Below are positions 587 through 58,388 of a stretch of 62,770 bases of DNA, piece by piece (the stretch's first letter is position 1; every line of letters begins with the position of its first letter). The notes below the pieces were generated by a model. The model was not told the DNA's origin. It ran no database searches and was given only the letters and a program-made list of their open reading frames with translations. The position numbers and the translations under genes are program-made. Source of the DNA: an uncultured cyanobacterium (lineage in GTDB: Bacteria > Cyanobacteriota > Vampirovibrionia > Gastranaerophilales > Gastranaerophilaceae); the NCBI GenBank assembly GCA_946545285.1, contig CAMNNA010000001.1:1-62770 (forward strand), read 5' to 3'.

Positions 587-3500
587 ATGAAAATTTTCAA
601 TGTAAGTAATATAAATATCTTTCCACAATTTTTAGGCAGAAGAAAAGACCGCAATACTGTCGAACAATTAACTCAAAATAATGATTACAATCTGAATCAT
701 AACAATCAAATTCGTATAAATAAAGCGATAGAAAATTTATCAAAATCATCAGATAAAGAAACAGTTGAGTTTTTACTTGACACTGCAGATAATTTAAAAT
801 ACGGGACAAATATTAATTTACGGGCAAAACAACCGTATAATGATTGGCGTTTAAAACTCAATAAAGCTGCATTGAAAGTTTACAAAAATTGTAATGATAA
901 CGATAAAAAGATAATAGATGAAAAAATGTTTAAGACTTTAGGGATTACCCAAAAGCCTCTAACAGATGATGAAAAAGAAATTTTGGAATTAAAAAAATCA
1001 ATATTATCAAATACTAAATCCAAAGAATTGGAAAACGTAAAAGGTCCGATGAAAAATCTTGTAACTAATTTAGATTATTTCATTATAAGTTCTGAAGTCT
1101 CAACTGCGGAAAAGCTTTATATAATGAAGCAATTAGATTATTTTATGAGTGATGCCTATGAAATTAACCCTCAGTTGAAAAATAAAAAAACGCAGGCATT
1201 AGCCGAAATAGTAAATGACATAACCGTTAATACCCCTGAATCAGAATATCCGAACACCAAGGCGATAAATCAAATGGGGCATGGGATTTGCGCCGCAATA
1301 TCCATATGCAGAAAAGCACTTTCATATGAACAGAAAGCAAAATATGTTGATATGGTTCTATCAGAGCTTGATTCAAATGATTACATGATGGTTTATGATA
1401 TTACAAAACTCGGCTCAGGAACAAAAATTCCTGTAAAAAAAGCTTCGATGGATTTTGAATATGCACTTGAAAAAGGATACCGAATAGTTGACACATCTGC
1501 TATGTATTGGATGAATGTTGCAGATATGGTCGGAGCGACAAATGAACAAATACAAAAATATATTCCGTTTAATAAAGGGGATTTAGATGTTTTACAAGAC
1601 TCACATATAAATGAAAATCTCGATATTGAACTGATTAACAAGCAAAATTTCTACAGAACATTAATAAAAAGCAGAGAACTATTTAAAAAATATCAAGTAA
1701 AAAAAGAAGAAAAACTGCATAAAGAAAGATTGTCAAAAAATTTAACCAAAAATAAATTTGATACAATTTATAAATATGAAACTTTGTTGGAAAATTTACT
1801 TTTTGATATTTCCCCAAAATCTGAAAGATCTGATATTAAAGAAATTAAAAAAAATTTACTTAATTTACAGGTAAATAATTCCGAAAAAAAAGAAAAATTT
1901 CCTAAAGAATTACAAAAATTTTCTTACATAGAAAATGAAGACGAAGAAATCATTCAAAAAAAGATAAAGCATTATTTAAGTGCAAATTACAATTTAGATG
2001 AAGAAAAATTAGAAAAAAATATTGATAAAATCGCAGAATATACAACAGAAATTAATAATCTTACAAAAGGAGATCAAATACATCCGGCTGCGAAATTAGT
2101 TCAAAAAAATAAGCAGTTATATTCTATTGCCGCAAGTTACCGAATTGCGCAGGAATATAAATTAAATATAGATGAAAACAAAGAGCATTTCATGACTTTA
2201 TACAACATTCCTGATACAGGTACATTAATGATTGAAAATCTGGATTATCTTATAAACTTGCTGGAAAAAGATAAGATGGACACTACTCTAAAAACCGGAT
2301 TGAAGAAAAATTTTGAAATTTCTGAAAGTAGTGATGAAGAATTACTAAAAACATTAAAAGATGTTAAAGACACAATTACTTATCTTTATACTGATTTGTT
2401 AGATGTTATGTACAATTCAATCTTATCAAAAGACAGAAAATCAGTACTTCATAATATGATTTTAGATTTAGAAAATGATATAGACGGAAAAATAACTCCT
2501 AATACTATAACAAAAATCGCAAGAGTTTTAAAAACAAAAGAAAATAAAGACGCAATTTTAAATAAATTATATGAACTTAATAATATATTAGAATCAGAAA
2601 ATCTGACTGAGGATAAATTAACTTATGTCTACAATTCAATCGGAGGAAAACTTCCGTTTGCAGATTTTTCGCAACAATTAAAGAAACTTAGCTATATACT
2701 TTTTGTAGACAAAAATACTCAGGTTATTCCGGGGTTTAATTTAATAAACGGGCTGGATAAGGATGCACCGTTATCTGAATCAGCAAAAGTTTTCTTGAAC
2801 ATTAATAACAATATGAATAACATTATCCAAATGATTAATTCATATAAACAAGCTTTAAAAGTCACCGATAAAACAGGAAGAATCCTAAATACCGTTGATG
2901 AAAATGATTATATTTTAAAAAAATTGGAAGAACACGGAAATGTCCCGAAAAGAAAAGATTTGGAACATTTTAGAGAAAAATTCAAAGAAATTGATAAAAG
3001 AAGATACAATAATGATGACAAAATAAAAGATATGCCGCCTGAATTAATAAAATTTAATTCATACGAAACTGAAATACTTAAAAATTACCAAAAACATATT
3101 GATATTTGGGCATCAAATGTTAATAAAGATTATATTTCAATTACAAAAGATTTAAAACCTCAATTAAGTGAACAGCACAGAAAAATAGGAGAATTAACCG
3201 GACAACGTTGGGTTCGCGTTGAAGGGGAAAGCGGGTTATCAAGCAATCAGGAAATAAAGATTTTTGAACATATGACTGATAAACCGTATTATTCTGAATC
3301 TGACAGCCAAAAGGCTATTGAAAAATTAGAAGAATCAAATTATCCTGCGATTTCAGCAACATCAGTTTCACATAAAGAACCTGCAATGCATGCTCAATAT
3401 ATAGCGGGGATATACACAGATGAATCCGGTAAAAAACTCTTTATGCATGACAACAGTTGGGGAAACTCGGAATTCAAAAATAATTGGAAAGATAAAAACG

Positions 3501-6490
3501 GAAGGACAAGAACCGATTATGAAAACGGTTATGGAGGAGAAAAGGGGTATATAGTAAACAATGAATACAAAACCGGCTATGAATTAGATGATATTTTAGA
3601 TGCTACTGTTGTTGTAAAACCTAAAAACACCCCGTCAAAAAAATTAAAAAAATTACACGGCGACTCGGACTATGAATGGTCTATGCCAATGTATAGAAAT
3701 ACAATACTGCAAGGAAAACACCCGAAAAGAAATGATTACGTTGAAATTATAAGGCAATTAATATTGCATAGCCCGGCGGCTTATCTTGATTCACTGTCTA
3801 AGCAGGCGCAAGAAATGACTGTTGATGAAATTAAAATGAAAATCAAAAAAGCCGAAACTATCGGAAAACACACTGCCGGCACTTATAATAATATTTTAAG
3901 CAAAATAAAAGGGGACGGTATCTTGAATTTTGGAATTAAAAATCAAGATGATTTTAACAAGCTGTCTGATAGTGATGATTTAAAGATAATTTTGGAAAAA
4001 GTTGCTATATCAAAATCTTACCCGAGTATAACTAATACTAAAAAATTATACAGTATTTCAAACTTTAAAGACTTACAAAAATTTAAAACCGAATTAAAAT
4101 CCGAAGCTATAGAAAATTTCAAATATTCTTTCGGGAAACATATTGATATTATTAAATACGGAGCCGAAAGTTCAAGAAAAGAAATTAACAGTTTACTAGA
4201 ACAATTTGAAAATTCTAATAATCTCAAAGTTGATTATTCTAAAAATAACCAAATAATAAGTTCTATGAAAAACATTTCCATAAAAGATTTTGACGGGAAT
4301 ATGGCGCATTCTATCGACACAATGACAAATATTTTTAATTCAGAATTTTCAAAATATTTATCGAAATTTAAAATAACAAATGATAAGGCCCAGGATCTAT
4401 CATTAAAAGTAAAAGATATATTAGAAAAAAATATGTATATAAATGAATCAGACTTAAAGTCTGAATTCAATGATGATGAAAACTTTAAACTTATTGAAGA
4501 ATTTATTGACAATAAAGATAATCCAAAAACAAATTCAGAATTTGTTAGTATTTTTAGAAATTATCAAAATATGACAACTGAAGAATTTAATTTGAATACT
4601 GAAAAATACTTAACTGACCGTATTTTAGGAATAAAAACCGTAAAAGGTTTTGATGTTATTAAAAAATTAAATCAAGGAAATGACAGTTACAGCGATTCTT
4701 TATTTAACATAATATTTGAACAAGAATATAGAAAAGAAACAGATTTAAGTAAAACAAAACCGACATACGATTATTATAAATTCTCAAGGATATATAACGG
4801 TCAAATATATCCGCAAGGCAGAACATTTGATGATGTATTTATAGATTATTATTACGATTTGTATATGTTGAGTAATAAAAAACGCATAAATAAAATCAGC
4901 GCTCAAATGTTCGAAAAATACGGTGTTTTCCCCGGATATCCCGACATTGATCCTGAATCTAAAGAAGGGATTAAAAAAACATTTGACAGATTGTTTGAAG
5001 TCATTGATGAAAATTCCGCAGCGATTTCAAGAAATAAAGAAATGATTGAAACTTACAGGTATATTGATGATTTACATGCAATGCTTGAATCTTCAAATGG
5101 TGATAAATTAATAAACGAAAAAGAATATAAAGAAATCAAAAAAAGATTTAAACTCGTAGAAAAATCACTGGAAGAAGATGATTCTACATTAAATATAGCA
5201 ATTGAAATAAAGGATCTGTTAGCGTCAAAAACACTTGATAGAGCAGCATATACGGCAATTTTGGCAGAAATTGAATTAACTATCGGCAGATTTCGTTACA
5301 CTCCTGCAGGCAAAACATTAAATGAACAAATTAAAGAGACAGACGAAGAATTAAACGATTTTGTAAGAAGTTTTGTAAATCATTCAATTCATCCGAAATA
5401 TCGTGACAGAGCATTTGATGCAATAAATGAATTTATAAAACTAAAAGCACGGTATTTTGATTATTCTGAACCGGATAAAAAACTTGAATACAAGCTTGAT
5501 AAAACATATGATAAAATTAAAAAAATATATGATAAACACAGAATATATCAAACATCAGAAGAAATACTAAAAGAATATGTATTAATGCATGCAAAAGATT
5601 ATCAAGTTGCAAAACCTGATACAAAGTCCGAACGTGCTGTAAAAGATTTATCTGAATTTGAAATTAAGAAAAAATCATTTAAAAATCTTTTAAAAGGGCT
5701 GCTTGCATCTGCTGAAATGGCGTCATTATTGAGAATTCTAATGACATGCGCTGATGAAGCGAATTTAAATGTTGTTAAAGAAGCGTTTAAAAATTCAAGT
5801 ATAGAACTTATAAACGGGCTTAGAGTTGCAATGGATTCAAATGAAGGTCTTGAGATCTTACTAAATCAATTATCAACTGAAAAAGATCAAAAAACTGCAC
5901 TGATGTTCATTGAGCAGCTGGGTTTAAGCGAACGTGCAATGGAAGTTTTAACTAAAAAAGCAGATTTTGAAAACAGATATAAATTAATAAACAGGGCACA
6001 TTCACTTTTAAAATCTCTTGATGCCGATATTGGTTTTGTCCACAGACAGCTTAAAGATATGCAGAATTATAAAAATAGAAATGACCTTTTTGTTAAAATT
6101 GATGAATTAAATGAAAAACTATTAAAAAGAAGAAAATGGACAAATTACAGACACGGAATCGACTTATATTCCGAATGTTTAAAAATGACAAAAAATCGAC
6201 TAAAAGATGTTGATCAAAAGGATTTAAAAGAAACATTTAATGAATATATGGATGCAACAGAATCAGTAATAATAAAAGATGCTCGGGATGAAGTCAGTGA
6301 AATTAATAAAGCAATCGAAAGCTATAATATGATTAATAATATGGTAGAAGAATTAAAAATTCCTAAAAATTCTGAGGCTGAAAAGCTAAAAGAAAAATAC
6401 CAAAAAGATTTTGAAGATTTTATTGAATATTGCAAAAATTCGAACAAAAAATACCCTAACATTGCAACAGAAACAGAATCTGATTTGTAA
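587..6490 (+). CDS. giant orphan protein (1967 aa) with putative split papain-like cysteine peptidase motifs
   Basis: One uninterrupted 1967-codon ORF, K/N/E/I-rich, with no signal peptide or TM seen. Q229-x5-C235 (NQMGHGICAAIS, nt 1271-1303). H935 ... D955-N956-S-W-G (AMHAQYIAGIY...LFMHDNSWG, nt 3383-3463), followed by GYGGEKGYIV. Confidence 0.8.
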   Translation: MKIFNVSNINIFPQFLGRRKDRNTVEQLTQNNDYNLNHNNQIRINKAIENLSKSSDKETVEFLLDTADNLKYGTNINLRAKQPYNDWRLKLNKAALKVYKNCNDNDKKIIDEKMFKTLGITQKPLTDDEKEILELKKSILSNTKSKELENVKGPMKNLVTNLDYFIISSEVSTAEKLYIMKQLDYFMSDAYEINPQLKNKKTQALAEIVNDITVNTPESEYPNTKAINQMGHGICAAISICRKALSYEQKAKYVDMVLSELDSNDYMMVYDITKLGSGTKIPVKKASMDFEYALEKGYRIVDTSAMYWMNVADMVGATNEQIQKYIPFNKGDLDVLQDSHINENLDIELINKQNFYRTLIKSRELFKKYQVKKEEKLHKERLSKNLTKNKFDTIYKYETLLENLLFDISPKSERSDIKEIKKNLLNLQVNNSEKKEKFPKELQKFSYIENEDEEIIQKKIKHYLSANYNLDEEKLEKNIDKIAEYTTEINNLTKGDQIHPAAKLVQKNKQLYSIAASYRIAQEYKLNIDENKEHFMTLYNIPDTGTLMIENLDYLINLLEKDKMDTTLKTGLKKNFEISESSDEELLKTLKDVKDTITYLYTDLLDVMYNSILSKDRKSVLHNMILDLENDIDGKITPNTITKIARVLKTKENKDAILNKLYELNNILESENLTEDKLTYVYNSIGGKLPFADFSQQLKKLSYILFVDKNTQVIPGFNLINGLDKDAPLSESAKVFLNINNNMNNIIQMINSYKQALKVTDKTGRILNTVDENDYILKKLEEHGNVPKRKDLEHFREKFKEIDKRRYNNDDKIKDMPPELIKFNSYETEILKNYQKHIDIWASNVNKDYISITKDLKPQLSEQHRKIGELTGQRWVRVEGESGLSSNQEIKIFEHMTDKPYYSESDSQKAIEKLEESNYPAISATSVSHKEPAMHAQYIAGIYTDESGKKLFMHDNSWGNSEFKNNWKDKNGRTRTDYENGYGGEKGYIVNNEYKTGYELDDILDATVVVKPKNTPSKKLKKLHGDSDYEWSMPMYRNTILQGKHPKRNDYVEIIRQLILHSPAAYLDSLSKQAQEMTVDEIKMKIKKAETIGKHTAGTYNNILSKIKGDGILNFGIKNQDDFNKLSDSDDLKIILEKVAISKSYPSITNTKKLYSISNFKDLQKFKTELKSEAIENFKYSFGKHIDIIKYGAESSRKEINSLLEQFENSNNLKVDYSKNNQIISSMKNISIKDFDGNMAHSIDTMTNIFNSEFSKYLSKFKITNDKAQDLSLKVKDILEKNMYINESDLKSEFNDDENFKLIEEFIDNKDNPKTNSEFVSIFRNYQNMTTEEFNLNTEKYLTDRILGIKTVKGFDVIKKLNQGNDSYSDSLFNIIFEQEYRKETDLSKTKPTYDYYKFSRIYNGQIYPQGRTFDDVFIDYYYDLYMLSNKKRINKISAQMFEKYGVFPGYPDIDPESKEGIKKTFDRLFEVIDENSAAISRNKEMIETYRYIDDLHAMLESSNGDKLINEKEYKEIKKRFKLVEKSLEEDDSTLNIAIEIKDLLASKTLDRAAYTAILAEIELTIGRFRYTPAGKTLNEQIKETDEELNDFVRSFVNHSIHPKYRDRAFDAINEFIKLKARYFDYSEPDKKLEYKLDKTYDKIKKIYDKHRIYQTSEEILKEYVLMHAKDYQVAKPDTKSERAVKDLSEFEIKKKSFKNLLKGLLASAEMASLLRILMTCADEANLNVVKEAFKNSSIELINGLRVAMDSNEGLEILLNQLSTEKDQKTALMFIEQLGLSERAMEVLTKKADFENRYKLINRAHSLLKSLDADIGFVHRQLKDMQNYKNRNDLFVKIDELNEKLLKRRKWTNYRHGIDLYSECLKMTKNRLKDVDQKDLKETFNEYMDATESVIIKDARDEVSEINKAIESYNMINNMVEELKIPKNSEAEKLKEKYQKDFEDFIEYCKNSNKKYPNIATETESDL

Positions 6491-6529: not shown

Positions 6530-7273
6530 ATGGACGATAGTGAAAAACGCTACGAAGATTTTATATCAACAGTTAGTCATGAATTAAGAACACCGTTAAC
6601 ATCTATTCGCGGTTTTGCGCAAACTATGCTTAATTCTTGGGACAAATTGGATGATGAAACCAAAAAGAAATTTGTAAAAATAATAGAAGAACAATCAAAC
6701 AGACTTATTCATATGACTGAAAATATGTTATCTGTCACAAAAACAGGAACAGATAAAAAGTCTTTGCATTACACAAATTTCAGCATAGGTAATCTTTTAA
6801 ATCAGACTCTGTATGTTTTAAAACAACAATACAAAAATCAAAAATTCGATATAAAAATTTCTCCTGAAAATATTGAGATTTTTGCTGATAAAGATAAATT
6901 CCAGCAAGTTTTAACTAATTTGATAGAAAACAGCGCAAAATATTCAAAAGAAGAATATTTAACTTTTATCAACATAAGAAATTTTGAAAATAACACGATA
7001 ATCGAAATTTCAAATACCGGAATACATATTGAAAGAAAAGATTATCAAAAGATATTTACTAAATTTTCGAGAATAGATAACCCTTTGACAAGGCAAGTTC
7101 AAGGAAGCGGACTTGGTTTGTACATAACAGAATCATTAATTAAAAAAATGGGCGGTGAAATAAGTGTAAAATCGGAAAAAATAAACAATTCCGAATTGGC
7201 AAAAATTACTTTTACCGTTAAGATGCCAATTAAAAATATTGAAGAACAAGCGAGGATACAATGCAATCAGTAA
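6530..7273 (+). CDS. sensor-less histidine kinase (HisKA + HATPase_c only)
   Basis: H-box FISTVSHELRTPLTSIRGF, N-box LTNLIENSAKYS, G2 box GSGLGLYITESL. 247 aa with no TM or input domain. Overlaps the next gene by 13 nt. Confidence 0.85.
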   Translation: MDDSEKRYEDFISTVSHELRTPLTSIRGFAQTMLNSWDKLDDETKKKFVKIIEEQSNRLIHMTENMLSVTKTGTDKKSLHYTNFSIGNLLNQTLYVLKQQYKNQKFDIKISPENIEIFADKDKFQQVLTNLIENSAKYSKEEYLTFINIRNFENNTIIEISNTGIHIERKDYQKIFTKFSRIDNPLTRQVQGSGLGLYITESLIKKMGGEISVKSEKINNSELAKITFTVKMPIKNIEEQARIQCNQ

Positions 7274-8565
7274 CATTAATCATAGATAAAAGACTTGAAC
7301 TATCAACAAAATATAAAAAAATGCTGGAATCTGATACCAATAAAGTTATAATTTCAAAAGATCTGCTTACAGCTATAAAAATAATAAAAGATAACGAACC
7401 GGATTTGATTATAATATCGGATAGTTTTGATAATGATTTATCAGACTTTTGCAAACAAGTAAGGGCATTGACCTATAATATGCGACCTGTAATAGTAGCT
7501 TTATCAAAATCTGCGGATATAAATGACAGAATCAAAGTTTTAAACAGCGGAGCGGATGATTTTTTATCAGAACCGGTTAATATGGATGAATTTAAAGTCA
7601 GAATGAACGCTCATTTAAGACGGGAATTTGAATCTAACTTCGATCCGAAACTTGTACTTGGCAATAAAAATTACACCTTAAGAGCAATAAAAAGAGAACT
7701 TGTAAAAGATTGCGATTGGGGAATGCTATATATCACAATTGAAAATTTTGACAGTTATAAACAAGCATACACTGAACTTGCATCAGATAAACTTTTGCAA
7801 ACCTTCACCGCAATTATAAAATCCGGAATTGAAGAAACAGATTATCTTGGACAATTGGAAGAAAATTCTTTTTTAGTTATTACAAACCGACTAAAATGCG
7901 AAAAAATTGCTAATTATTTAACTTATGCATTTGATTCTGTTTCGTCAAGATTCTACGCAGAACACGATTTGACAAGAGGGTATATGATTTTGCAAGGGGA
8001 TGAATTTGCCGGAAAAAGAGTGAATTTTGTTCACACAACTATTGGTGCAATAACAAATTCTTCCGGTAAATACAAGACAATAAATCAAGTTCTAAATTCA
8101 TTAATACAAATCCATAATCTTGCACAAAAGCCGAACAAATCGGATTATTTAATAGAAAGAGAACAAATCCAAGGTGCAAATAGTGTTTGTGAAAGAAAAT
8201 ATAATAATAAAATTGTAATTTATGAACCTGATAGCGCTTTGAGCACTTTATTAAGCGCTATTTTAGACCTTCAAGGATACGAAGTAATCGTTATGGAAAA
8301 ATATTTAATGCCTAAAAAAATTATAAATCCGGCACTTGTAATAATAGATGCCGGTGATTTAGGAAAGAAAAACGGACTTAATCTTTGTTATAAAATAAAG
8401 AATTCAATTGATTTTAAAAATTCAAAAGTTGTTGTAACATCTGTTGTTCATGATAAAGAACTTGTATTAAATACCGGTGCGGATTTATACTTGCCAAAAC
8501 CATACGAAATTCCTAATATGATCAGGTGGATTGATTCGTTGGTTAAAGAATTTAACGAAGGCTAA
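7261..8565 (+). CDS. response regulator: pseudo-receiver, degenerate GGDEF-like domain, C-terminal receiver
   Basis: The N-terminal REC-like fold has eroded sites (LIIDKR, DDFLSEPV with E in place of the conserved K). The middle domain is GGDEF-like, but the motif reads LGQLEENSF. The C-terminal REC keeps D (VIIDAGD), T (VVVTSV) and K (LPKPYE). Confidence 0.7.
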   Translation: MQSVTLIIDKRLELSTKYKKMLESDTNKVIISKDLLTAIKIIKDNEPDLIIISDSFDNDLSDFCKQVRALTYNMRPVIVALSKSADINDRIKVLNSGADDFLSEPVNMDEFKVRMNAHLRREFESNFDPKLVLGNKNYTLRAIKRELVKDCDWGMLYITIENFDSYKQAYTELASDKLLQTFTAIIKSGIEETDYLGQLEENSFLVITNRLKCEKIANYLTYAFDSVSSRFYAEHDLTRGYMILQGDEFAGKRVNFVHTTIGAITNSSGKYKTINQVLNSLIQIHNLAQKPNKSDYLIEREQIQGANSVCERKYNNKIVIYEPDSALSTLLSAILDLQGYEVIVMEKYLMPKKIINPALVIIDAGDLGKKNGLNLCYKIKNSIDFKNSKVVVTSVVHDKELVLNTGADLYLPKPYEIPNMIRWIDSLVKEFNEG

Positions 8566-12728: not shown

Positions 12729-13481
12729 TTAATTATTTTTTCTATATTTATCAAGTAAATTTGTACTGCCTGTTTCAGTGTTCACAATATCAATAGAGTG
12801 AATACTATCTTTAAGCCCTGTTTCTTGCATTCCTTGCATAGAAACATCCTGTATTTCGGAATTATCTGCGTTTTTTGTTTCATTTTTTTCTTCTTCTGTT
12901 TTACTGCCCATCCAACCTTCAACTTTTTTAGCCATCGGTGTTGCAATAAACGGAACAATAACACGTTTTCCTAAAATTGTCGCCGCGGCAATGTTTGTAA
13001 TATTTCCGATAGTATCTAAACAGAACTTACGCAATTCTTTGTATTTATCAGAAATTTCAGATTTGCTGGATGGAGTTATACCTGCAGCTTTTTGATGGAT
13101 GCGAACCTTTTCCGTCAAAGGTTTTAATGCCTTTCCTGCCTTGTCAAATGTTTTAGGGAACAGAGAAGTTAACAATTTATTATTTAATTTCTTCATTCCG
13201 AAAAACATTCCTATTTGGCAAAGAATCATTAATAATCCGTTTGTTAAATCCAATGCTGAAACAAATTTTCTTCGTTTTTCAGGAATTTTTTTGTTATTTA
13301 AACTTTGCGTAACATACATTGCGCAGCCAATACCATCTTTTATACATATTGATGCAATAGTTGAAACGGCCAAAGCTTCAGCGTACTTTTCGCCGTCAAA
13401 TTTCTTTAAACCGCTTTGTATCTTAGCCCAATTAGTAATACCACCGAATAATTTTGAAGCAACAGAATCGACTATAGCCAT
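12729..13481 (-). CDS. hypothetical membrane protein, orphan family B
   Basis: Start/stop overlap (1 nt) with the upstream gene. Colinear similarity to 13481..15028 and 52058..53017 (basic loop K-I-P-E-K-R-R-K-F then a hydrophobic helix, plus a C-terminal hydrophobic IVPFIATPM segment). Confidence 0.7.
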   Translation of the reverse strand: MAIVDSVASKLFGGITNWAKIQSGLKKFDGEKYAEALAVSTIASICIKDGIGCAMYVTQSLNNKKIPEKRRKFVSALDLTNGLLMILCQIGMFFGMKKLNNKLLTSLFPKTFDKAGKALKPLTEKVRIHQKAAGITPSSKSEISDKYKELRKFCLDTIGNITNIAAATILGKRVIVPFIATPMAKKVEGWMGSKTEEEKNETKNADNSEIQDVSMQGMQETGLKDSIHSIDIVNTETGSTNLLDKYRKNN

Positions 13482-15028
13482 TATTTGTTACCTCCGTTCG
13501 GGTTATTTTCCTTTTTGACTCCGGCAAGAGCAGGGAAGAATATTTCCATAAACCTTGGATATATCCAATTCAATATCGTGCAACTAGCCGGCATTGTAAT
13601 TACCGCACCAATTATAATTTTAATCCATTGATTAACAGCTTTACATCTTGTATTTACTAACGCTTGATAACCGTCAACTAAATCTTTATATATTTTCTTT
13701 TGTAATTTTTCAGGAACAGAACTAAATACCTTGCTATCGCTTAACAAAGATGATAATTTTGCATTTTTCGGATCAAAACCGCATTTTTCAATTAATGCTG
13801 CTAATGTTCTTTGAACTTGGGAAGGAGAAGCATTTGCAGGATCTTCTATTTTTAATTTTTTCAATCCTTTGATTAATCCGTCAATCTCGTCATTTCGGTC
13901 ACGCATAACCTTAGCGTAAGTGTTCATATCAAAATGATCACCGCATAAATTTTTTATACAGTCTATACGATCTAATGTTCTTTGACACCTGCTCAATCGG
14001 ACTTTATGGTCATCTTTATCTACAATTTCTTGCAGAATTTGGCGAACATCAGATTTATCTGTATCTTTAATTGCTTGTTTTAGATAATCAAGAAGTTCTG
14101 TTTCTCCTTGTGGTAATTTTGACTGATCCAAAATATTTCTTAATTCTGCTTCATTTGTAATTAATTGGTCAGCACGAACCAAATAGAAATCTTTACCTCT
14201 TAATTCACCGTTTGAAAAATCATGAATTTTTAATTTTTCAGTACCGGCTGCATAAGAATCAATCTGTTTATTAATTAAATCAGCAATAGTCTTATTATCA
14301 ACGAATCTATCGCCAATTTTTATTTGACCATGTTCTTCTAAATACTTGGCCATATTTTCCAGTTGTTGGGCATGCTTTGCCTCAACTCTTTTGGCAACTT
14401 CTGATTTTATATAAGCATTTTTTTCTTTTCTGCTGTCAAATGTTATGTTTTTATCTTTAATTTCTTTTTTAACTTCTTTTTTAAATTGATTTTCAAGGTA
14501 TGATTTTGAATTAACTTCGCGTCTGTCTAAAAATAACCAATAATTTTTAGCATAATCGGGATTATTTGTTTGAGCATCTACAAATTTATTGATTAAAGGT
14601 TGAACACCGGCTTGCGTAATAATAGCAATTATTGCAGAAATCGGTTGACGCCATGCGGAATATTCCTTTGTGCGCCTAACTTCTGCTTTTTCTTCTTCTG
14701 TAGCGCCGGGTTTTGCTTTAACAAAAGGGTTAAAAGCAATCGGGAACGGGGCAACAAAACCCGTACCTGCTGCAGTAATCAAGATACCGCCCAATTCACC
14801 GGTCAGATAATCAATCCATTTTGCGCCGGAAATACGTTTCATCCATTTCGGATCTCCGCATAATTGTTTAATATAATCTAAAGTTGATAATGCGGTTCTT
14901 GTTCCATTTCCAAATGACGGATTGGAGCCTGAATAATGCTCTGAAGATAAAGCATGACCGGCTAAATTCTTTATTTTTTTGGAATTTACCCCTGAGTCTA
15001 TACTTTTTCTGACAATATCTACCTGCAT
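13481..15028 (-). CDS. hypothetical membrane-associated protein, orphan family B
   Basis: 515-aa ORF with a long charged coiled-coil-like middle, an N-terminal hydrophobic segment (GGILITAAGTGFVAPFPIAF) and a C-terminal one (IIIGAVITMPASCTILNWIYP). Confidence 0.7.
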   Translation of the reverse strand: MQVDIVRKSIDSGVNSKKIKNLAGHALSSEHYSGSNPSFGNGTRTALSTLDYIKQLCGDPKWMKRISGAKWIDYLTGELGGILITAAGTGFVAPFPIAFNPFVKAKPGATEEEKAEVRRTKEYSAWRQPISAIIAIITQAGVQPLINKFVDAQTNNPDYAKNYWLFLDRREVNSKSYLENQFKKEVKKEIKDKNITFDSRKEKNAYIKSEVAKRVEAKHAQQLENMAKYLEEHGQIKIGDRFVDNKTIADLINKQIDSYAAGTEKLKIHDFSNGELRGKDFYLVRADQLITNEAELRNILDQSKLPQGETELLDYLKQAIKDTDKSDVRQILQEIVDKDDHKVRLSRCQRTLDRIDCIKNLCGDHFDMNTYAKVMRDRNDEIDGLIKGLKKLKIEDPANASPSQVQRTLAALIEKCGFDPKNAKLSSLLSDSKVFSSVPEKLQKKIYKDLVDGYQALVNTRCKAVNQWIKIIIGAVITMPASCTILNWIYPRFMEIFFPALAGVKKENNPNGGNK

Positions 15029-15890: not shown

Positions 15891-17633
15891 TTAATGCTGT
15901 TTATAAACATTTTCACCGCAATAAGTTTCAATATTTGGAGTATCAATTTCAAAAACGTGAATTCTTCCCGGACCTAAATCAACAGATATTTCTCCTTCAG
16001 AAACTTGGAATTTGCTATCTTTTCCGTATTTAGGTAAAAGATTTTCAAGTTTTTGTGTAGCTTTCATTGTCGGAATTTCAATAATACCTGAAACATTTCT
16101 GTTTACGTTTTTATTTGCAATAACAAGAAGTGTTCGTCCATGTCTGTGACGGGCAAAAGCAATAATTTGATCGTTTTTATCTTTTTTCTTATTTAAAACT
16201 ATGTATGATCCTCGTTTTGTGACTTCCTCATATTTTTCTCGGAATTTCAAACATTCGGTCATGAATTTTCCGATTTGAGGTTCTTTTCCTCCCGGTTTTC
16301 TTGCCAAATTAAAAATATCCATTCTCCCATCAGGAAATGGCAGTGTCATTATTGAACTATCCGTTCGTGTATCAGCCCCGACATTTTTATCTTTATACGG
16401 ATAAACGTAATAGTCGCCTGATTGGAATCCGTCAACAAAATACGGATTTATCATCGGTAAAGTCGCCTGAAGTCCGGAAGTCAAATTACAAAAAACTTCT
16501 CCTCCATGAAACATCGGTGAAATATCATCATGAGTTGTAAATGAACCAATAAGTGATTTACCGACATCAACCCGATATGACATATTTAAATTGTCTATAA
16601 TATACTTGTGGAGTTCTGAGGCATTTGGCCACTCATTAAATATATGAAATTGTCCGTAGTAAGAATCGAAACCTGCGCGCAAGGAATCTTCAGGTCTGTC
16701 ATATGGCATATTAGCCTGCGGAGATGCATCTTCATAGGTATAAGTTTCAGCAAGCCATGCAAATTCAGGATCTCTTTTTCTTGAATAAGGAATAATAATA
16801 TCCCAAAATTCAACCGGCTTAGCTCTTGCCACATCAGCCCTTATTCCGTCAACACCCGCATCAATCATCATATCAACAAATTCTTTGTGATACTCTAATA
16901 ATTTTGGATTCAAAATGCGTTTGCCTTCATCTTCCCAAGGTTGAAACATTCTGATATCATTCCAACCTGCAGGAATTTTGGCAACACCATTTTCTTTTGC
17001 CATCAAATCAGGTCGTTTTTTATACAAATCGTAAGATGCACAACTTGGCAAATCAACCATAACTTTTATTCCCCGATTATGGCATGCCGTAACAAACGCC
17101 CTAAATTGTTCTATATCAGATCGAGGATCATTTTTATCAATCAATACCGGATCAATTTTTAGTAAATCTTCAGGAGCATAAACAGATCCTGCTGTGCCTT
17201 GCGCATTTTCTTTACCCGGAGGGTTTATCGGAAGTAAATGAAGGGTATTAAATCCTTCTTCTTTAATTTTATCCAATCTGTCAATTAAATTTAAAAATGT
17301 TCCCGGGGTTTCATTTCCGTCAATGTAGCCGTTACCGTTTTTATCATCTGAATTCGCGATTCTTGGCAGGACACACAATATATTTGCGCTGTTTGTCAGA
17401 AATAATGTTCTCAAATTATTTCTGTAAGGTTTTGGAGCTTCATTTAATGCCGGTTTTTCAATTTTATTGATATTATAAGAATTAATTTTAGACTGATTAT
17501 CAAGATATTTTTCCAGCAAATTTGTGGAAGTAAAACTGACTTCAACAGAATTATTCAATTTTGGATTTGTGTTAAAATAAACAGACTTATTATAAAATTT
17601 ATTGTAAATCAAATTGGTATCAAAATTTATCAT
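15891..17633 (-). CDS. GH13 alpha-amylase family glycoside hydrolase
   Basis: GH13 regions: GFNTLHLLPINP, GIRADVARAKP (region II), AWLAETYTYE (region III Glu), FTTHDD (region IV). Region I reads VMVDLPSCAS, which is atypical. No signal peptide. Starts 3 nt after the upstream stop. Confidence 0.8.
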   Translation of the reverse strand: MINFDTNLIYNKFYNKSVYFNTNPKLNNSVEVSFTSTNLLEKYLDNQSKINSYNINKIEKPALNEAPKPYRNNLRTLFLTNSANILCVLPRIANSDDKNGNGYIDGNETPGTFLNLIDRLDKIKEEGFNTLHLLPINPPGKENAQGTAGSVYAPEDLLKIDPVLIDKNDPRSDIEQFRAFVTACHNRGIKVMVDLPSCASYDLYKKRPDLMAKENGVAKIPAGWNDIRMFQPWEDEGKRILNPKLLEYHKEFVDMMIDAGVDGIRADVARAKPVEFWDIIIPYSRKRDPEFAWLAETYTYEDASPQANMPYDRPEDSLRAGFDSYYGQFHIFNEWPNASELHKYIIDNLNMSYRVDVGKSLIGSFTTHDDISPMFHGGEVFCNLTSGLQATLPMINPYFVDGFQSGDYYVYPYKDKNVGADTRTDSSIMTLPFPDGRMDIFNLARKPGGKEPQIGKFMTECLKFREKYEEVTKRGSYIVLNKKKDKNDQIIAFARHRHGRTLLVIANKNVNRNVSGIIEIPTMKATQKLENLLPKYGKDSKFQVSEGEISVDLGPGRIHVFEIDTPNIETYCGENVYKQH

Positions 17634-17636
17634 AAT

Positions 17637-20141
17637 TTATGAATTCTCCTTTCCCGGTAATTTCCCAAAGAAAAATTGCGATAATACCGTTCCGGCAGTT
17701 AATACAGCGCCAATTGTCCCAAAAGTTTTAAGCCATTTTGTACTGTTAAATTTTTGTTTGCAAAGATTGTTAAACATTTCATCAAGAGAACTTCCCAATA
17801 AATTAAATTTAAAGTCTGATCCTGATTTAACTTCATAGTCAAACACTTTATGGAATCGTTTAGGGAAATATTCATATCCGCCTAAGAATTTGAATATATC
17901 TTCACGATAACGTGCAAAATCTGATCCAAAAACTGTATCTTTAATACCTTCTAATGTTTTTGAATTTAGTTCTTCATTGTATATGATTTCCATAAAAGCT
18001 TTAAAGAAATTTTTATCATTTGCTAATTCGACCAAATCTTTATCGGCAGTGTTTGCAAGATGATCTAAACTTCGTTTTGAATACAATTTTACTGAATAAT
18101 CACTCAAATGACCGTCAATCAAAGTTTTTTTGCATAAATCCAATAATTCTTTTTTAGATACATCATCTAAATATTTAAAAGTTTGGGAATTAAAATTCAT
18201 ACCTTCATGAACTCTTCTGTAAAAATCTAAAGTATTTAAAATTCTGTAAAAAGAGCTTTTAACCCCGCGAATTCTATCAGTTAAAAAGTTTTTCTGAATG
18301 CCTTTTAAAGATGTTCTTCCACTGTCATCATATCCTGAAACCGCAGCAGCAGTAGAGTCTAAACCTAATTCTGATAATTTTTTACCCATTGCATTGAATA
18401 CATCATCAACCATAGATTGATATTTCGCGTTACCAATTTTTAATTGTTCGCTTTCTTGCCCAAAAACATTTTCTGTCGGAAGTTCAGACAATTTCTTTCT
18501 GAGATCTTCTATAGTTTGTTTGTATAACTCATCATCTGAAACTATTTTTTCAAATTTTTCTTTCAAAATGTCACCGGCAAAAGTTCTGTCTAATCGGGAT
18601 TTTTTAATTTCTGAATCAGTAAAATTAAATGTTTTTAAAAGACTTTCAGTTATATTATTCCAATTATCAGCCAGCATTGTTTCAGGAGCTTGCGCAGCCC
18701 TTATGTATGCGTATTTATCTAATACAAACACTCTTGATATAAATCCGTGCATCAAAGTATTTATTGAATGAATTTGAGAAATTATCCCATCTGTTAATTT
18801 TGCACTCTGGTTCGAACGCAAAGCTTTTTCCAGCGGAGAAAAATCTGTTTTATTTTTTGAATGCATTAAATTTTTAATATACATATTTAATATGTTATTA
18901 ACACTGCTGTTTGGATTATTTTGCGCATATGTTTTTACATTTCTTGTGATAAGTGAATTTATTGCCTTTTTATGCTCGGATAAATCTTTTATCCCTTCTG
19001 TTAACAACCCTCTTTCGATAAAAGAAGTTTTTATTTCATCTTTAGACGGCATTATTTGATTAATAATTTCATCATCCAATTTAAATTTTTTAAATTCATC
19101 TTTTAATGCACTATAGACATTACCTAATACTTCATCATCTACATTGTAGTTTTTGTTTCCGAAAAGATTTGTCAAATCTTGTTTTAATTTTGCTCTCGTT
19201 CCAATATCGTACCATTCAGATAAATTAGCGGACAATTTTTCAATAAATTCAGGGGTAATATTTTTACCCTTATATGTTTCTAAAAGTGCTTCTAATTGCT
19301 TATTTTCGTCTTTGAATTTGTATTTTTGAGATTCCTGAGTGACATTTTTTAATAAATCATTTGCTTTTTGAGCAGCCATTTTTTCCTGTAACCTTAAAAT
19401 CGGTTTTTCGGCAGCGTTACATATTAAAGCACTTAAAATCGGAGTAGCTATACCTGATGTAAGCATCCACATGGTGTTGTTTTGAAGGGCAATTTTTCTC
19501 ATTTTTTCCTGAATATAAGCCCTGCGATTTTTCATGTTTTTATCTACACCAAGTCTGTCACCTATTTTGTTTATTTCGTCATCTGAATATAAATCCCACG
19601 GAATAAATTGGTGATCTTGATAGAAGAATTTTTTTCTGCCGTAATTATCAACGTATTGCTGTCTAACATCAACTCCATGAATTAAATATGCAGGAAGCTG
19701 CAGCGCCAGTTTTGGCCAAATATCCATTGCCGCAAAAAATGAAGTTAATCCCACAAATTCCATAACTTTTGTCAGCGGAGTTTGTTTTCTTGTTGCTAAA
19801 TATCCGGCAATAGCAAGCCCGCCAAGTTTCATTCCCACATCATTAATTTTTCCTAATTCATGATCGTTTGCATCTCCTGTTATTGCATGTTTGACTGAAT
19901 TGAGGCTATATTTAAAATCTTTAAACAATTCTGAGGGGATATCAAAAATGTTTGTTTTTACTAAATGACCGTTGCCTGGTAACGGTTTTATAAATGTATG
20001 TGTTGATAATTCTTTATTAATATCAAAATCTTTAGCGGCCTTATCAGATTTATACTTTTGTAATATAGGAGAATTCCCTGTTTGGTATGCTTGTATCAAA
20101 TTAGTTTTCATCTTAGCACACCACCGTTTCTTTTTTATCAT
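17637..20141 (-). CDS. hypothetical membrane protein, orphan family A (834 aa)
   Basis: TM pair (LGGLAIAGYLA, FVGLTSFFAAMDIW) and a C-terminal TM. Colinear similarity to 20113..21156 (GVDVRQQY/GIDTQIPY, FIPWDLY/FTRWDLLY, INKIGDRLGV/FDKIAKKNGLG). Alternative ATG at 20111 lies 1 nt after the upstream stop. Confidence 0.75.
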   Translation of the reverse strand: MIKKKRWCAKMKTNLIQAYQTGNSPILQKYKSDKAAKDFDINKELSTHTFIKPLPGNGHLVKTNIFDIPSELFKDFKYSLNSVKHAITGDANDHELGKINDVGMKLGGLAIAGYLATRKQTPLTKVMEFVGLTSFFAAMDIWPKLALQLPAYLIHGVDVRQQYVDNYGRKKFFYQDHQFIPWDLYSDDEINKIGDRLGVDKNMKNRRAYIQEKMRKIALQNNTMWMLTSGIATPILSALICNAAEKPILRLQEKMAAQKANDLLKNVTQESQKYKFKDENKQLEALLETYKGKNITPEFIEKLSANLSEWYDIGTRAKLKQDLTNLFGNKNYNVDDEVLGNVYSALKDEFKKFKLDDEIINQIMPSKDEIKTSFIERGLLTEGIKDLSEHKKAINSLITRNVKTYAQNNPNSSVNNILNMYIKNLMHSKNKTDFSPLEKALRSNQSAKLTDGIISQIHSINTLMHGFISRVFVLDKYAYIRAAQAPETMLADNWNNITESLLKTFNFTDSEIKKSRLDRTFAGDILKEKFEKIVSDDELYKQTIEDLRKKLSELPTENVFGQESEQLKIGNAKYQSMVDDVFNAMGKKLSELGLDSTAAAVSGYDDSGRTSLKGIQKNFLTDRIRGVKSSFYRILNTLDFYRRVHEGMNFNSQTFKYLDDVSKKELLDLCKKTLIDGHLSDYSVKLYSKRSLDHLANTADKDLVELANDKNFFKAFMEIIYNEELNSKTLEGIKDTVFGSDFARYREDIFKFLGGYEYFPKRFHKVFDYEVKSGSDFKFNLLGSSLDEMFNNLCKQKFNSTKWLKTFGTIGAVLTAGTVLSQFFFGKLPGKENS

Positions 20142-21156
20142 TCATCACAGATTTAATATTTGATTTTGAAGGCTTTTTAGTAATATGCAATGTATTGGCT
20201 AACCCTAAAATTGTGGATGCTAATGCAGTTCCTAAAAGAATTTTACCCGAATGTTTTCCTGCAATGGATTTTGATTTTTCTTTGCCGTTTAAAAACGATT
20301 CGGTCGCTTTCAACGCACTTTTCCCGAATATTTTTATTGAGTGTGCAAAAACTTTAGGCTGCCAAATTTTAAAATTCATTACTTTAAAATAATGTTTCCA
20401 AGAATTTTGGAAAGCTAATCCAACGCCGACTGCCGCCCATAAATATGACGAAATTGTTCTTGCTAAATTTGATTTTATCAAAACTTCTTTATAAATAGGC
20501 TTTACTTCCTGATCTGAATCGTTTAAATTTTCTCCGAGTCCGTTTTTCTTTGCAATTTTATCGAAAATAAGATTATGTTCAGGGGTGCCTGTTTTTTTGT
20601 AAAGTAAATCCCATCTTGTAAAATCAACACTTTCGCCGATTTTATGATACTCAATACTTGTTAAATCCGAATCTTGCGGTGATTGTTGTAATTGATGTAT
20701 TACTCTTGCGTACGGGATTTGAGTATCTATTCCGGTGAACCATTTTACAGGTTTATCAATAAAGTTTTTTGAAAATTCCTTAAATAACCCGTAAAAAAGC
20801 ACCCCTAAAGCCATTTTATTGCCAAGTTGAGATGCTCTTAATTTATCCCTGTGCGCATAACTTTTGTATGCATTAAAAATCGACATCAAGGTGATACTGC
20901 CGATAATATAAGGAACATTTCCCATTGTTAAAAATTCATAGAAATTGGAATTTATACTGCCTGTCATGCCTTTTACCGGATAAACCGTAAAGGCTTTTGT
21001 AATTTTATCAACTCCAATCCTTGCACGAGTGGAAAAATTATTTTCTAAAAGAGTATCCCCATCGTACATTTCATCCGGTTTTTTCCCGGATTCCTCCCCA
21101 TAAAACTTTGGTGTTTTATCGTTAAATTTTATGTTTATCGGTAAAATCATGACCAC
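20113..21156 (-). CDS. hypothetical membrane protein, orphan family A (347 aa)
   Basis: First gene of the cluster, with GGAG 7 nt upstream of the ATG. Multi-TM, paralogous to the N-terminal third of 17637..20141. Confidence 0.7.
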   Translation of the reverse strand: MVMILPINIKFNDKTPKFYGEESGKKPDEMYDGDTLLENNFSTRARIGVDKITKAFTVYPVKGMTGSINSNFYEFLTMGNVPYIIGSITLMSIFNAYKSYAHRDKLRASQLGNKMALGVLFYGLFKEFSKNFIDKPVKWFTGIDTQIPYARVIHQLQQSPQDSDLTSIEYHKIGESVDFTRWDLLYKKTGTPEHNLIFDKIAKKNGLGENLNDSDQEVKPIYKEVLIKSNLARTISSYLWAAVGVGLAFQNSWKHYFKVMNFKIWQPKVFAHSIKIFGKSALKATESFLNGKEKSKSIAGKHSGKILLGTALASTILGLANTLHITKKPSKSNIKSVMNDKKETVVC

Positions 21157-30820: not shown

Positions 30821-31222
30821 TTATTTTCTTGCAAGGTACTGTTCCAGTATAATACAAGCACTCTCAATATCAACAAGTCCTTTATTTTTCTTAAAATCTA
30901 TTTTTTTTTCTTTTAAATTTTCTTGTGCCTGCTCTGATGTTAATCGTTCATCTTCAAAAATAATTTCATAACCTTTTATTTTAGATGCGAATATTTCACA
31001 ATCTTTTGCTTGAAAACCTTTTGTATCATCCATATTTAAAGGAAGCCCGACAACAATTTTTCCGACATGATTTTCTTTTGCTATTTTTTGGATTTGCGCC
31101 AAAGATTCTTTTTCTGGATTTCTTTGTAAGCAGCAATAACCCGATGCAACCATCAAAAGATAATCACTCAATGCCACACCAATCCTTTTTGTACCTACAT
31201 CCAAAGCCATTACTTTATACAT
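30821..31222 (-). CDS. ruvX: Holliday junction resolvase-like RuvX/YqgF
   Basis: VMALDVGTKRIGVALSD N-terminal motif and LPLNMDDT, ERLTS. ATG 31222 chosen (G-rich stretch upstream). The track ORF starts at a TTG at 31234. Confidence 0.85.
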   Translation of the reverse strand: MYKVMALDVGTKRIGVALSDYLLMVASGYCCLQRNPEKESLAQIQKIAKENHVGKIVVGLPLNMDDTKGFQAKDCEIFASKIKGYEIIFEDERLTSEQAQENLKEKKIDFKKNKGLVDIESACIILEQYLARK

Positions 31223-58387: not shown

Positions 58388-58388
58388 T

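What the first reader, a model, noticed from the sequence alone, without database searches (positions are those of the whole stretch)
587..6490. 1967-aa orphan protein with papain-like catalytic motifs separated by ~700 residues
The ORF carries Q229-x5-C235 (NQMGHGICAAIS), the same Gln-to-Cys spacing as papain Q19/C25. About 700 residues later it has H935 (AMHAQYIAGIY), then D-N956-S-W-G and GYGGEKGYIV. This resembles the C1-family His strand and the NSWG..GY motif. The intervening ~700 residues and the C-terminal ~1000 residues are K/E/N-rich and helical-looking, with no motif I recognise. No signal peptide or TM is visible. A papain fold interrupted by such a large insertion inside a giant low-complexity protein would be unusual. 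It could mark a large effector, toxin or surface-processing enzyme.
Basis: partly seen in the sequence, partly recalled or inferred. Interest (0 to 1): 0.7.

Follow-up and report, generated by a model that had tools for sequence, protein, structure and literature searches.

The report
Split papain-like domain in giant protein
The 1967-residue protein is not an orphan: it belongs to an unannotated family of about 2000-residue proteins found across gut Melainabacteria, and it most likely carries a very divergent papain-type cysteine hydrolase domain split by a helical insertion of about 520 residues.

Summary
"Orphan" is wrong. There are at least 315 homologue clusters, 146 species genomes carry a relative, and nearly all named ones are Gastranaerophilales/Melainabacteria gut MAGs.

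In 184 aligned homologues C235, H935, N956 and W958 are invariant, and Q229 is present in 183. C235 is the only invariant Cys of 6 and H935 the only invariant His of 30. The two motif-bearing blocks are the most conserved parts of the protein.

AlphaFold2 (residues 1-1150, pLDDT 85.6) puts C235 at the N-terminus of a helix. H935 starts a strand and N956 follows the next strand, which is the papain arrangement. The His/Asn half modelled alone retrieves almost only papain-fold enzymes by Foldseek. None is individually significant (best E 0.048).

Pfam, NCBIfam, PDB sequence profiles and hhalign against C1A find no family match. An exhaustive HMMER scan finds only 133 relatives, all giants or fragments. 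In the 15 most divergent members the Cys-to-His gap is 461-721 residues.

I could not measure whether the two halves pack, because model coordinates are not exposed.

Verdict: a new, very divergent papain-fold family with an extreme insertion. Its substrate is unknown, and a secreted toxin or effector role is unlikely.

The parts
587..6490 (+). Whole gene: 1967-aa protein of 229.6 kDa, pI about 6.4. It belongs to an unannotated family of roughly 1850-2480-aa proteins.
   Evidence: ORF list and translation; mass and pI; homologues
587..1033 (+). N-terminal conserved helical region (aa 1-149). It contains a family-wide motif F15-x-G17-x-R19-x-D21-R22-N23 just after a disordered tip (aa 1-15).
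   Evidence: Invariant columns; model secondary structure and pLDDT; the motif can also be read in the divergent members
1034..1633 (+). Cys-bearing half of the putative papain-like domain (aa 150-349). This is the most conserved block of the protein.
   Evidence: Conservation profile peaks at residues 161-320; model secondary structure
1268..1303 (+). NQMGHGICAAIS motif. Q229 (nt 1271-1273) is the putative oxyanion-hole residue. C235 (nt 1289-1291) is the putative nucleophile and lies at the N-terminus of helix 235-248.
   Evidence: Positions; C235 in 184/184 and Q229 in 183/184 sequences; helix assignment
1634..3199 (+). All-helical insertion (aa 350-871). It opens with a 59-residue helix (350-408) and closes with a 47-residue helix (825-871). 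It is the least conserved part of the N-terminal 1150 residues.
   Evidence: AF2 secondary structure, pLDDT mostly 85-96; conservation 0.39-0.59; the Cys-to-His gap varies from 461 to 721 aa in the divergent members
3200..3727 (+). His/Asn-bearing half (aa 872-1047). It is a mixed alpha/beta sub-domain whose structural neighbours are papain-fold enzymes.
   Evidence: AF2 of residues 876-1047 alone gives pLDDT 86.7; the Foldseek top 50 are almost all clan-CA enzymes, best E 0.048 and probability 0.85
3383..3415 (+). AMHAQYIAGIY motif. H935 (nt 3389-3391) is the putative general base, at the start of strand 934-944.
   Evidence: H935 in 184/184 sequences and the only invariant His of 30; strand assignment
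3446..3463 (+). H-D-N-S-W-G motif. N956 (nt 3452-3454) is the putative third triad residue, directly after strand 950-954. W958 is invariant.
   Evidence: N956 and W958 in 184/184 sequences. D955 is replaced by I in P0256 and by N in P0262 while N956 is kept, which favours N956 over D955
3527..3556 (+). GYGGEKGYIV motif. It corresponds in position to papain's G-x-x-GY-I strand. G983 and G987 are invariant.
   Evidence: invariant columns; co-linear placement in the forced hhalign alignment
3728..6487 (+). C-terminal ~920 residues (aa 1048-1967). They are conserved along the full length with several invariant patches (F1178, Y1180, G1237, P1313). No domain was recognised and this region was not modelled.
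   Evidence: Alignment; no Pfam or NCBIfam hit

Best explanation
The gene encodes a member of a previously unannotated protein family of about 2000 residues. The named genomes that carry it are Melainabacteria, mainly gut Gastranaerophilales.

The protein contains a highly divergent papain-fold (clan-CA-type) cysteine hydrolase domain built from two distant segments.
- Residues ~150-349 supply the core helix. C235 sits at its N-terminus, and Q229 lies six residues upstream as the oxyanion-hole residue.
- Residues ~872-1047 supply the beta-sheet. H935 and N956 lie on or at the ends of consecutive strands, and W958 would shield the His-Asn pair as W177 does in papain.
- Between the two segments lies an all-helical module of ~520 residues. 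It leaves and re-enters through two long helices (350-408 and 825-871).

What is shown: the residues, their invariance, their secondary-structure context, and the papain-like neighbours of the His/Asn half.

What is inferred:
- The two halves pack to form one Cys-His-Asn site.
- The enzyme is active as a thiol hydrolase, most simply a peptidase or isopeptidase.
- It works inside the cell.
- The inserted helical module and the ~920-residue C-terminal region recruit or gate substrates.
For: 1. Motifs and positions are verified. The chance of the combined pattern in shuffled sequence is 0.11%.
2. C235, H935, N956 and W958 are present in 184/184 homologues and Q229 in 183/184. C235 is the only invariant Cys of 6 and H935 the only invariant His of 30.
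3. The two motif-bearing blocks are the conservation maxima of the whole protein.
4. The same residues are kept in the 15 most divergent relatives found by exhaustive HMMER. The Cys-to-His gap in these ranges from 461 to 721 residues.
5. The AF2 model of residues 1-1150 has pLDDT 85.6 and pTM 0.79. C235 opens helix 235-248, H935 opens strand 934-944, and N956 follows strand 950-954. The insertion starts and ends with long helices. These positions match the superfamily definition in PMC10318531.
6. The isolated His/Asn half (pLDDT 86.7) returns ananain, bromelain, EP-B2, cathepsins S and L, Amb a 11, staphopains A, B and C, a Josephin-type DUB and a CdiA-CT toxin as essentially all of its top 50 Foldseek hits. 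About 77 core columns superpose at 2.6-4 A with 16-24% identity.
7. A forced hhalign alignment of the insertion-deleted profile to five C1A sequences is co-linear for Q, C, H, NSW and GY.
8. Extensive insertions between the Cys helix and the sheet are documented for this superfamily (PMC10318531).
Against: - No Foldseek match is individually significant: best E is 0.048 and none reaches E<=1e-3.
- The whole 1150-residue model gives only helical-repeat noise.
- There is no hit to Peptidase_C1 or any peptidase family in Pfam or NCBIfam. This holds for insertion-deleted chimeras and for 24+4 family members.
- Profile searches against PDB sequences find nothing.
- hhalign against C1A gives E 0.086 and probability 0.7%, driven only by the 12-residue Cys motif.
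- The Cys-bearing half was never modelled or fold-searched on its own.
- Spatial proximity of C235 and H935 was not measured.
- Co-evolution analysis was uninformative.
- There is no experimental or expression evidence.
Confidence: 0.68

Rival explanations
1. The fold is papain-like and the triad is real, but the chemistry is not peptide-bond hydrolysis of proteins. The domain could instead act as a transglutaminase, deamidase, acyl- or acetyltransferase, amidase, or ubiquitin-like deconjugase. All of these share the Cys-His-(Asn/Asp) core.
For: - The papain-like superfamily includes all of these activities on the same core (PMC10318531).
- The Foldseek neighbours include a Josephin-type DUB (9fpa) and a CdiA-CT toxin domain (8ssk) as well as peptidases.
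- No peptidase family HMM matches.
Against: - The best and most numerous neighbours are true endopeptidases of the papain and staphopain groups.
- The Q-x5-C and N-S-W-G motifs are those of papain-type peptidases (established knowledge of family C1).
- No Pfam, NCBIfam or PDB-sequence match to any family was obtained.
Confidence: 0.17
2. The protein is a secreted or injected effector, toxin or surface-processing enzyme. The helical regions would serve delivery or host-target binding.
For: - The protein is very large with an enzymatic cysteine-hydrolase-like domain, as in some large toxins.
- A papain-like CdiA-CT toxin is among the structural neighbours.
- The window encodes a flagellar type III export component, FlhA, so a non-Sec export route exists in principle.
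- The highly conserved N-terminal motif could be an export or processing signal.
Against: - There is no signal peptide or TM segment.
- There is one copy in the window and no paralogue.
- The protein is conserved full-length in 146 species genomes, nearly all named ones from one bacterial group, rather than patchy or polymorphic.
- Neighbours are housekeeping genes: LigA, GltX, Dxr and ClpB here; DnaE, FtsZ and purine or heme genes elsewhere.
- No mobile-element, immunity-gene or secretion-system linkage was seen.
- There is no match to phage or defence-type signatures in Pfam.
Confidence: 0.08
3. Only the His/Asn half is a papain-like remnant. C235 and Q229 are conserved for another reason, such as structure, metal binding or redox. 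The protein would then be a non-catalytic scaffold (pseudo-enzyme).
For: - Packing of the two halves was not measured.
- The Cys half was not independently fold-matched.
- All sequence-family tests are negative.
Against: - An isolated papain R-half has no known function, yet H935, N956 and W958 are invariant.
- The only invariant Cys lies at a helix N-terminus with Gln at -6, exactly as the nucleophile does in the superfamily.
- Both blocks are the conservation maxima.
- The insertion enters and leaves through two long helices, as expected for a domain inserted into a loop.
Confidence: 0.06
4. The motifs are a chance resemblance in a long, compositionally biased ORF.
For: The protein is long, and short motifs are individually common. 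Q-x5-C occurs in 17% of shuffles.
Against: - The combined ordered pattern occurs in 0.11% of shuffles.
- All four residues are invariant across 184 sequences at ~30-45% identity, and in more divergent members.
- The structural neighbours are papain-like.
Confidence: 0.01

Closest known systems
Papain family C1A (papain, ananain, bromelain, cathepsins L and S; Pfam PF00112)
   Same: - The Gln-x5-Cys spacing matches.
- Cys lies at a helix N-terminus.
- His lies on a strand followed by a hairpin and an Asn-Ser-Trp-Gly motif, then a G..GY-[IV] strand.
- These enzymes are the majority of the structural neighbours of the His/Asn half.
   Different: - There is no HMM or profile-profile match.
- The residue after Cys is Ala rather than Trp.
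- There is no signal peptide, I29 propeptide or disulfide cysteines.
- Cys and His are 700 residues apart, against 134 in papain.
- The domain is embedded in a 230-kDa, probably cytoplasmic protein.
Staphopains (family C47)
   Same: These give the highest TM-scores to the His/Asn half: 8oig, 1pxv and 1cv8 with TMq 0.34-0.40. They are bacterial and have a minimal papain-like core with a Gln/Cys/His/Asn site.
   Different: - Staphopains are small secreted enzymes of about 175 residues with pro-regions and dedicated inhibitors.
- The matches are not significant (E 0.08-0.18, rmsd about 8 A over the long alignments).
- No sequence similarity was detected.
Bleomycin hydrolase / PepC (family C1B, PF03051)
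   Same: These are intracellular papain-fold enzymes without a signal peptide. They have a long Cys-to-His spacing of about 300 residues (from my own knowledge, not tested here) and an ENSWG-type motif.
   Different: There is no Pfam PF03051 hit. The spacing here is more than twice as long and is made of a separate helical module. Size and architecture differ.
USP-type deubiquitinases (C19) and other papain-like enzymes with large intra-domain insertions
   Same: The principle is the same. The Cys-bearing helix and the His-bearing sheet are separated by an extensive insertion that shapes specificity (PMC10318531).
   Different: The USP Cys-box and His-box motifs are absent. The insertion here is all-helical and about 520 residues long, not a beta 'fingers' sub-domain. 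No DUB family HMM matches.

Membership tests
Papain-like cysteine peptidase superfamily (clan CA fold, as defined in PMC10318531) | [quoted passage not shown] | tested here: met
   DSSP on the AF2 model gives helix 235-248 with C235 as its first residue; local pLDDT is about 86-88. C235 is present in 184/184 homologues.
Papain-like cysteine peptidase superfamily (clan CA fold, as defined in PMC10318531) | The helix is followed by an antiparallel beta-sheet, with His on one strand and the third polar residue on or after the next strand. | tested here: met
   H935 opens strand 934-944. Strand 950-954 follows after a turn, then N956. The same elements appear in both the in-context and the isolated model. 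H935 and N956 are invariant.
Papain-like cysteine peptidase superfamily (clan CA fold, as defined in PMC10318531) | A statistically significant structural match to solved members. | tested here: inconclusive
   Nearly all of the top 50 Foldseek hits of the His/Asn half are papain-fold enzymes (probability up to 0.85). The best E is 0.048 and none reaches E<=1e-3. The whole 1150-residue model gives no usable match.
Papain-like cysteine peptidase superfamily (clan CA fold, as defined in PMC10318531) | The Cys helix packs on the sheet so that the Cys thiol and the His imidazole are adjacent. | not testable with these tools
   Model coordinates, contacts and PAE are not returned. Co-evolution analysis was uninformative.
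Papain-like cysteine peptidase superfamily (clan CA fold, as defined in PMC10318531) | Thiol-dependent hydrolase or transferase activity. | not testable with these tools
   This requires biochemistry.
Peptidase family C1 (Pfam PF00112 / PF03051) | A match to the family HMM at or near the gathering threshold. | tested here: not met
   There is no C1 hit at E<=1 for the full protein, at E<=10 for five insertion-deleted chimeras, or at E<=1 in 24 family members.
Peptidase family C1 (Pfam PF00112 / PF03051) | Profile-profile similarity to C1A sequences. | tested here: not met
A forced alignment is co-linear but not significant.
Peptidase family C1 (Pfam PF00112 / PF03051) | The active-site motifs Q-x5-C, H, and N-S-W-G. 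| tested here: met
   The motifs are kept in the divergent members, with Q-x4-C in one of them, P0234.
Orphan (taxonomically unique) gene | No homologues in other genomes. | tested here: not met
   There are 315 clusters at E<=1e-3, 146 species genomes, and 133 representatives at 50% clustering among 1.84 billion proteins.
Secreted toxin / effector | An export signal, secretion-system or immunity-gene linkage, or a patchy or mobile distribution. | tested here: not met
   There is no signal peptide or TM segment. Neighbours are housekeeping genes. The distribution is lineage-wide. Non-classical export cannot be excluded.

The most novel reading that the evidence does not exclude
The family is a regulated giant intracellular protease specific to Melainabacteria. 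The ~460-720-residue helical module inserted inside the catalytic domain, together with the conserved N-terminal F-x-G-x-R-x-D-x-N segment, would act as a built-in gate or auto-inhibitor. It would assemble or open the Cys-His site only on a signal. This would be a bacterial counterpart, in logic only, of switchable eukaryotic cysteine proteases such as calpain or separase, possibly controlling a core cellular process.
Probability: 0.12. Interest if true: 0.7.

Novelty: new variant of a known kind. Interest (0 to 1): 0.5.

Why it matters
- If the split papain-like site is real and active, this would be a new family of cysteine hydrolases. It is invisible to Pfam, NCBIfam and PDB-sequence searches.
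- It is conserved in a whole gut-associated, uncultured bacterial group, the non-photosynthetic relatives of cyanobacteria.
- It would extend the known tolerance of the papain fold to intra-domain insertions from hundreds to roughly 460-720 residues.
- It would give a catalytic handle (C235, H935) for studying a 230-kDa protein conserved across Gastranaerophilales that has no functional annotation.
- It is also a useful test case for remote-homology pipelines. Only motif reading plus half-domain modelling revealed the relationship.

Tried and rejected
1. **Foldseek of the whole 1-1150 model against PDB and BFVD.** Results were swamped by helical-repeat and coiled-coil hits such as importins, catenin, Rad50/SMC and tape-measure proteins. 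Nothing was significant.
2. **Insertion-deleted chimeras (aa 150-349 + GSGS + 872-1047) for AF2.** The same chimeras gave no peptidase hit in Pfam or against PDB sequences.
3. **Co-evolution between the two halves.** APC-corrected mutual information on 184 sequences (Neff80 of 122) was dominated by subfamily-specific positions and gave no usable contact signal.
4. **Full-length profile against PDB sequences.** Only coiled-coil noise appeared.
5. **Single-sequence genome scan.** It found nothing; the alignment-based scan was needed.
6. **Gene-neighbourhood inference.**
   - The window's neighbours (HK, RR-GGDEF, arginase-family, LigA) are not conserved next to homologues.
   - A TSCPD-giant-FtsZ arrangement occurs in 30-40 of 79 loci. 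It is confined to the subclade of proteins most similar to the window's and is convergent or divergent in orientation. I treat it as inherited gene order, not functional linkage.
7. **Promoter and terminator scan.** Results were at background level in this AT-rich DNA.
8. **Literature.** No paper links Gastranaerophilales or Melainabacteria to such a protein.
9. **D955 as the third triad residue.** I considered and rejected it, because it is replaced by Ile in P0256 and by Asn in P0262 while N956 is kept.
Full report
**1. Observation**

The ORF at 587..6490 on the + strand is real, starts with ATG and encodes 1967 residues. Every motif is at the stated position.
- NQMGHGICAAIS begins at residue 228, giving Q229 and C235.
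- AMHAQYIAGIY begins at 933, giving H935.
- DNSWG begins at 955, giving N956.
- GYGGEKGYIV begins at 981.

The protein has only 6 Cys, 30 His and 8 Trp. In 200,000 shuffles of its own sequence, the ordered combination "Q-x5-C, then H-x10-30-NSW" appeared in 0.11%.

There is no TM-like segment: the best 19-residue Kyte-Doolittle mean is 1.39. The N-terminus has no signal-peptide-like hydrophobic core. The gene has no tandem repeats. Its K/L/E/I/N-rich composition fits a locus of 27-30% GC, so "low complexity" is not an apt description.

**2. Not an orphan**

A search of about 5.8 billion clustered proteins returned 315 clusters at E<=1e-3. The best 120 are nearly all 1930-2190 residues long, and most align over ~100% of the query at 31-41% identity. 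None has a Pfam domain or a meaningful name.

An alignment-based scan of one genome per GTDB species found 146 genomes encoding a relative. Of the 78 loci kept, the informative titles nearly all read Gastranaerophilales, Melainabacteria or "Cyanobacteria bacterium" MAGs. The sources are human, ruminant and other animal guts.

The window itself looks like ordinary chromosome of such an organism. It carries LigA, GltX, Dxr, ClpB, an arginase-family enzyme, two-component proteins and flagellar FlhA. There is no second copy in the window.

**3. Conservation test of the proposed catalytic residues**

In a 184-sequence alignment, C235, H935, N956, W958 and D955 are present in 184/184 sequences. Q229 is present in 183/184, the exception being a gap. 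C235 is the only invariant Cys, the next best being 65% conserved. H935 is the only invariant His.

Column conservation along the protein peaks at residues 161-320 and 881-1000. These are the two motif-bearing blocks. The intervening region is the least conserved part of the N-terminal half.

I also ran an exhaustive HMMER scan of 1.84 billion representatives with a profile of residues 876-1047. It found only 133 proteins at E<=1e-3. All are proteins of about 1850-2480 residues or fragments of such proteins. No C1 or other peptidase family appeared, and no relative has an uninterrupted domain.

In the 15 most divergent full-length hits:
- The Q-x5-C motif is retained (x4 in P0234), as are H and N-[ST]-W.
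- The Cys-to-His distance varies from 461 to 721 residues.
- D955 is replaced by Ile in P0256 and by Asn in P0262, whereas N956 never changes. N956 is therefore the better candidate for the third triad residue.

**4. Structure**

AlphaFold2 on residues 1-1150 with 39 homologues gave mean pLDDT 85.6 and pTM 0.79.
- C235 is the first residue of helix 235-248.
- H935 opens strand 934-944.
- After a turn comes strand 950-954, then N956-S-W958.
- The segment 350-871 is entirely helical. It begins with a 59-residue helix (350-408) and ends with a 47-residue helix (825-871), as expected for a module inserted into a loop of a host domain.

These are the positions that define the papain-like core. That core is a helix with Cys at its very N-terminus, followed by an antiparallel sheet carrying His and the third polar residue (PMC10318531).

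Foldseek with the whole model was uninformative, because helical-repeat matches dominate and a local aligner cannot bridge a 520-residue gap.

I therefore modelled the His/Asn half alone (residues 876-1047; pLDDT 86.7, with nearly the same secondary structure). Its top 50 PDB neighbours are almost exclusively papain-fold enzymes:
- ananain (E 0.048, probability 0.85);
- the Ricinus KDEL endopeptidase, barley EP-B2, bromelain, silkworm fibroinase and Amb a 11;
- many cathepsin S and L entries (about 77 columns, rmsd 2.6-4 A, 16-24% identity);
- staphopains A, B and C (TMq up to 0.40);
- a Josephin-type DUB, a Parabacteroides dipeptidyl peptidase and a CdiA-CT toxin.

No single match reaches E<=1e-3. 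The evidence lies in the uniformity of the list, not in any one score.

**5. What could not be shown**

The tools return no coordinates, contacts or PAE, so I could not measure whether C235 and H935 are adjacent.
- Mutual-information analysis was dominated by phylogeny.

One weak hint comes from residues 966-968. They are assigned as a strand or bridge in the in-context model but not in the isolated half. This would be consistent with a partner outside that half, but I do not rely on it.

**6. Family membership**

Sequence methods uniformly fail to place the protein in any curated family.
- Pfam and NCBIfam give no hit on the full protein.
- Pfam gives no peptidase hit on five insertion-deleted chimeras at E<=10.
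- Pfam gives nothing consistent on 24 members or on four divergent members.
- Profiles of the full family and of the chimeras find nothing in PDB sequences.
Only the 12-residue Cys motif aligns.
- When the alignment is forced to extend, it is co-linear for Q, C, H, NSW and GY, but this is not statistically significant.

I therefore do not file it as a member of family C1. I file it as a probable new, very divergent family of the papain-like superfamily. Its nearest structural neighbours are in the papain/staphopain group.

The review by Ozhelvaci and Steczkiewicz notes two relevant points. [quoted passage not shown] The architecture is therefore an extreme case of a known theme, not a new principle.

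**7. Likely mechanism and biological role**

The most likely mechanism is a Cys235 thiolate / His935 imidazolium pair oriented by Asn956, with Trp958 as a shield. Gln229 would contribute to the oxyanion hole, giving thiol-dependent hydrolysis. The neighbours and motifs favour a peptidase or isopeptidase. Other chemistries that use the same core, such as transglutaminase, deamidase or acyltransferase, cannot be excluded.

A cytoplasmic enzyme is more likely than a secreted toxin or effector, for four reasons:
- There is no export signal.
- The gene is present in 146 species genomes of one bacterial group, with one copy in this window.
- The neighbours are housekeeping genes.
- There is no mobile-element, immunity-gene or secretion-system linkage.

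The helical insertion and the ~920-residue C-terminal region plausibly provide substrate recruitment or gating. This is inference only. Gene neighbourhood gives no functional clue.

**8. Verdict**

It is unproven at the level of an assembled active site, and it is not supported as membership of family C1.

The finding is a new variant of a known kind. Interest is moderate: an unannotated, lineage-wide 230-kDa putative cysteine hydrolase with an unusually large intra-domain insertion.

Noticed in passing
window 587-700 (aa 1-38); also the N-termini of P0234-P0266: An N-terminal motif [FL]-x-F-x-G-x-R-x-D-[RHK]-N-x-[VI]..L is conserved even in the most divergent family members. It sits right after a disordered tip (pLDDT<50 for aa 1-15). 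It could be a processing site, a degron, an auto-inhibitory peptide or an export signal.
   Followed up: partly
L001-L076, flanks of the homologous gene: In roughly 30-40 of 79 loci the giant gene is flanked by two genes. Upstream is a divergently transcribed ~90-113-aa TSCPD-domain gene, about 80-230 bp away. Downstream is a convergent ftsZ, about 45-115 bp away, often followed by a SprA-related gene. This arrangement is confined to the subclade closest to the window protein and is absent from the window itself.
   Followed up: yes
window 6530-8565: 39 bp downstream of the giant gene lies a sensor-less histidine kinase (HisKA+HATPase, 247 aa). It is followed by an overlapping response-regulator-GGDEF gene on the same strand, with no terminator-like site between them, so co-transcription is possible in this genome. 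This pairing is not conserved in other genomes (2 of 79 loci or fewer).
   Followed up: partly
window 29157-30524 (-): A 454-aa ORF has four Clp_N (PF02861) repeats and no AAA+ domain. This is an unusual stand-alone arrangement of ClpA/B N-domain repeats.
   Followed up: no
window 13481-15028 (-), 17637-20141 (-), 20113-21156 (-), 31215-32822 (-): Four further sizeable ORFs (515, 834, 347 and 535 aa) have no Pfam match at the thresholds used (E<=1e-3 for the first, E<=1e-5 for the other three). The 834-aa and 347-aa ORFs overlap by 29 nt and lie just upstream of a glycoside-hydrolase-like gene (15891-17633).
   Followed up: no
window ~12.6 kb and ~24 kb: Gene orientation and GC skew flip together. 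Genes are on + with positive skew from 1 to 12.6 kb, and on - with negative skew from 12.7 to ~24 kb. The cumulative skew has a local maximum near 12 kb. This may simply reflect the coding strand, or it may mark a replication-related switch.
   Followed up: no
window 56294-61811 (-): A flagellar type III export gene, FlhA (FHIPEP, E 3e-213), is followed by further ORFs on the same strand. The source organism therefore appears to be flagellated, as reported for some Gastranaerophilales.
   Followed up: no
P0234, P0237, P0243, P0250, P0260, P0266 (representatives search): The divergent family members of 2200-2480 aa carry an extra C-terminal extension of a few hundred residues that is absent from the window protein. 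From my reading of the sequences it has repeated '..D(I/L)LGR..' helical-repeat-like elements. Their context differs (L080: Pan_kinase and SpoIIM neighbours) and their taxonomic origin was not established.
   Followed up: no
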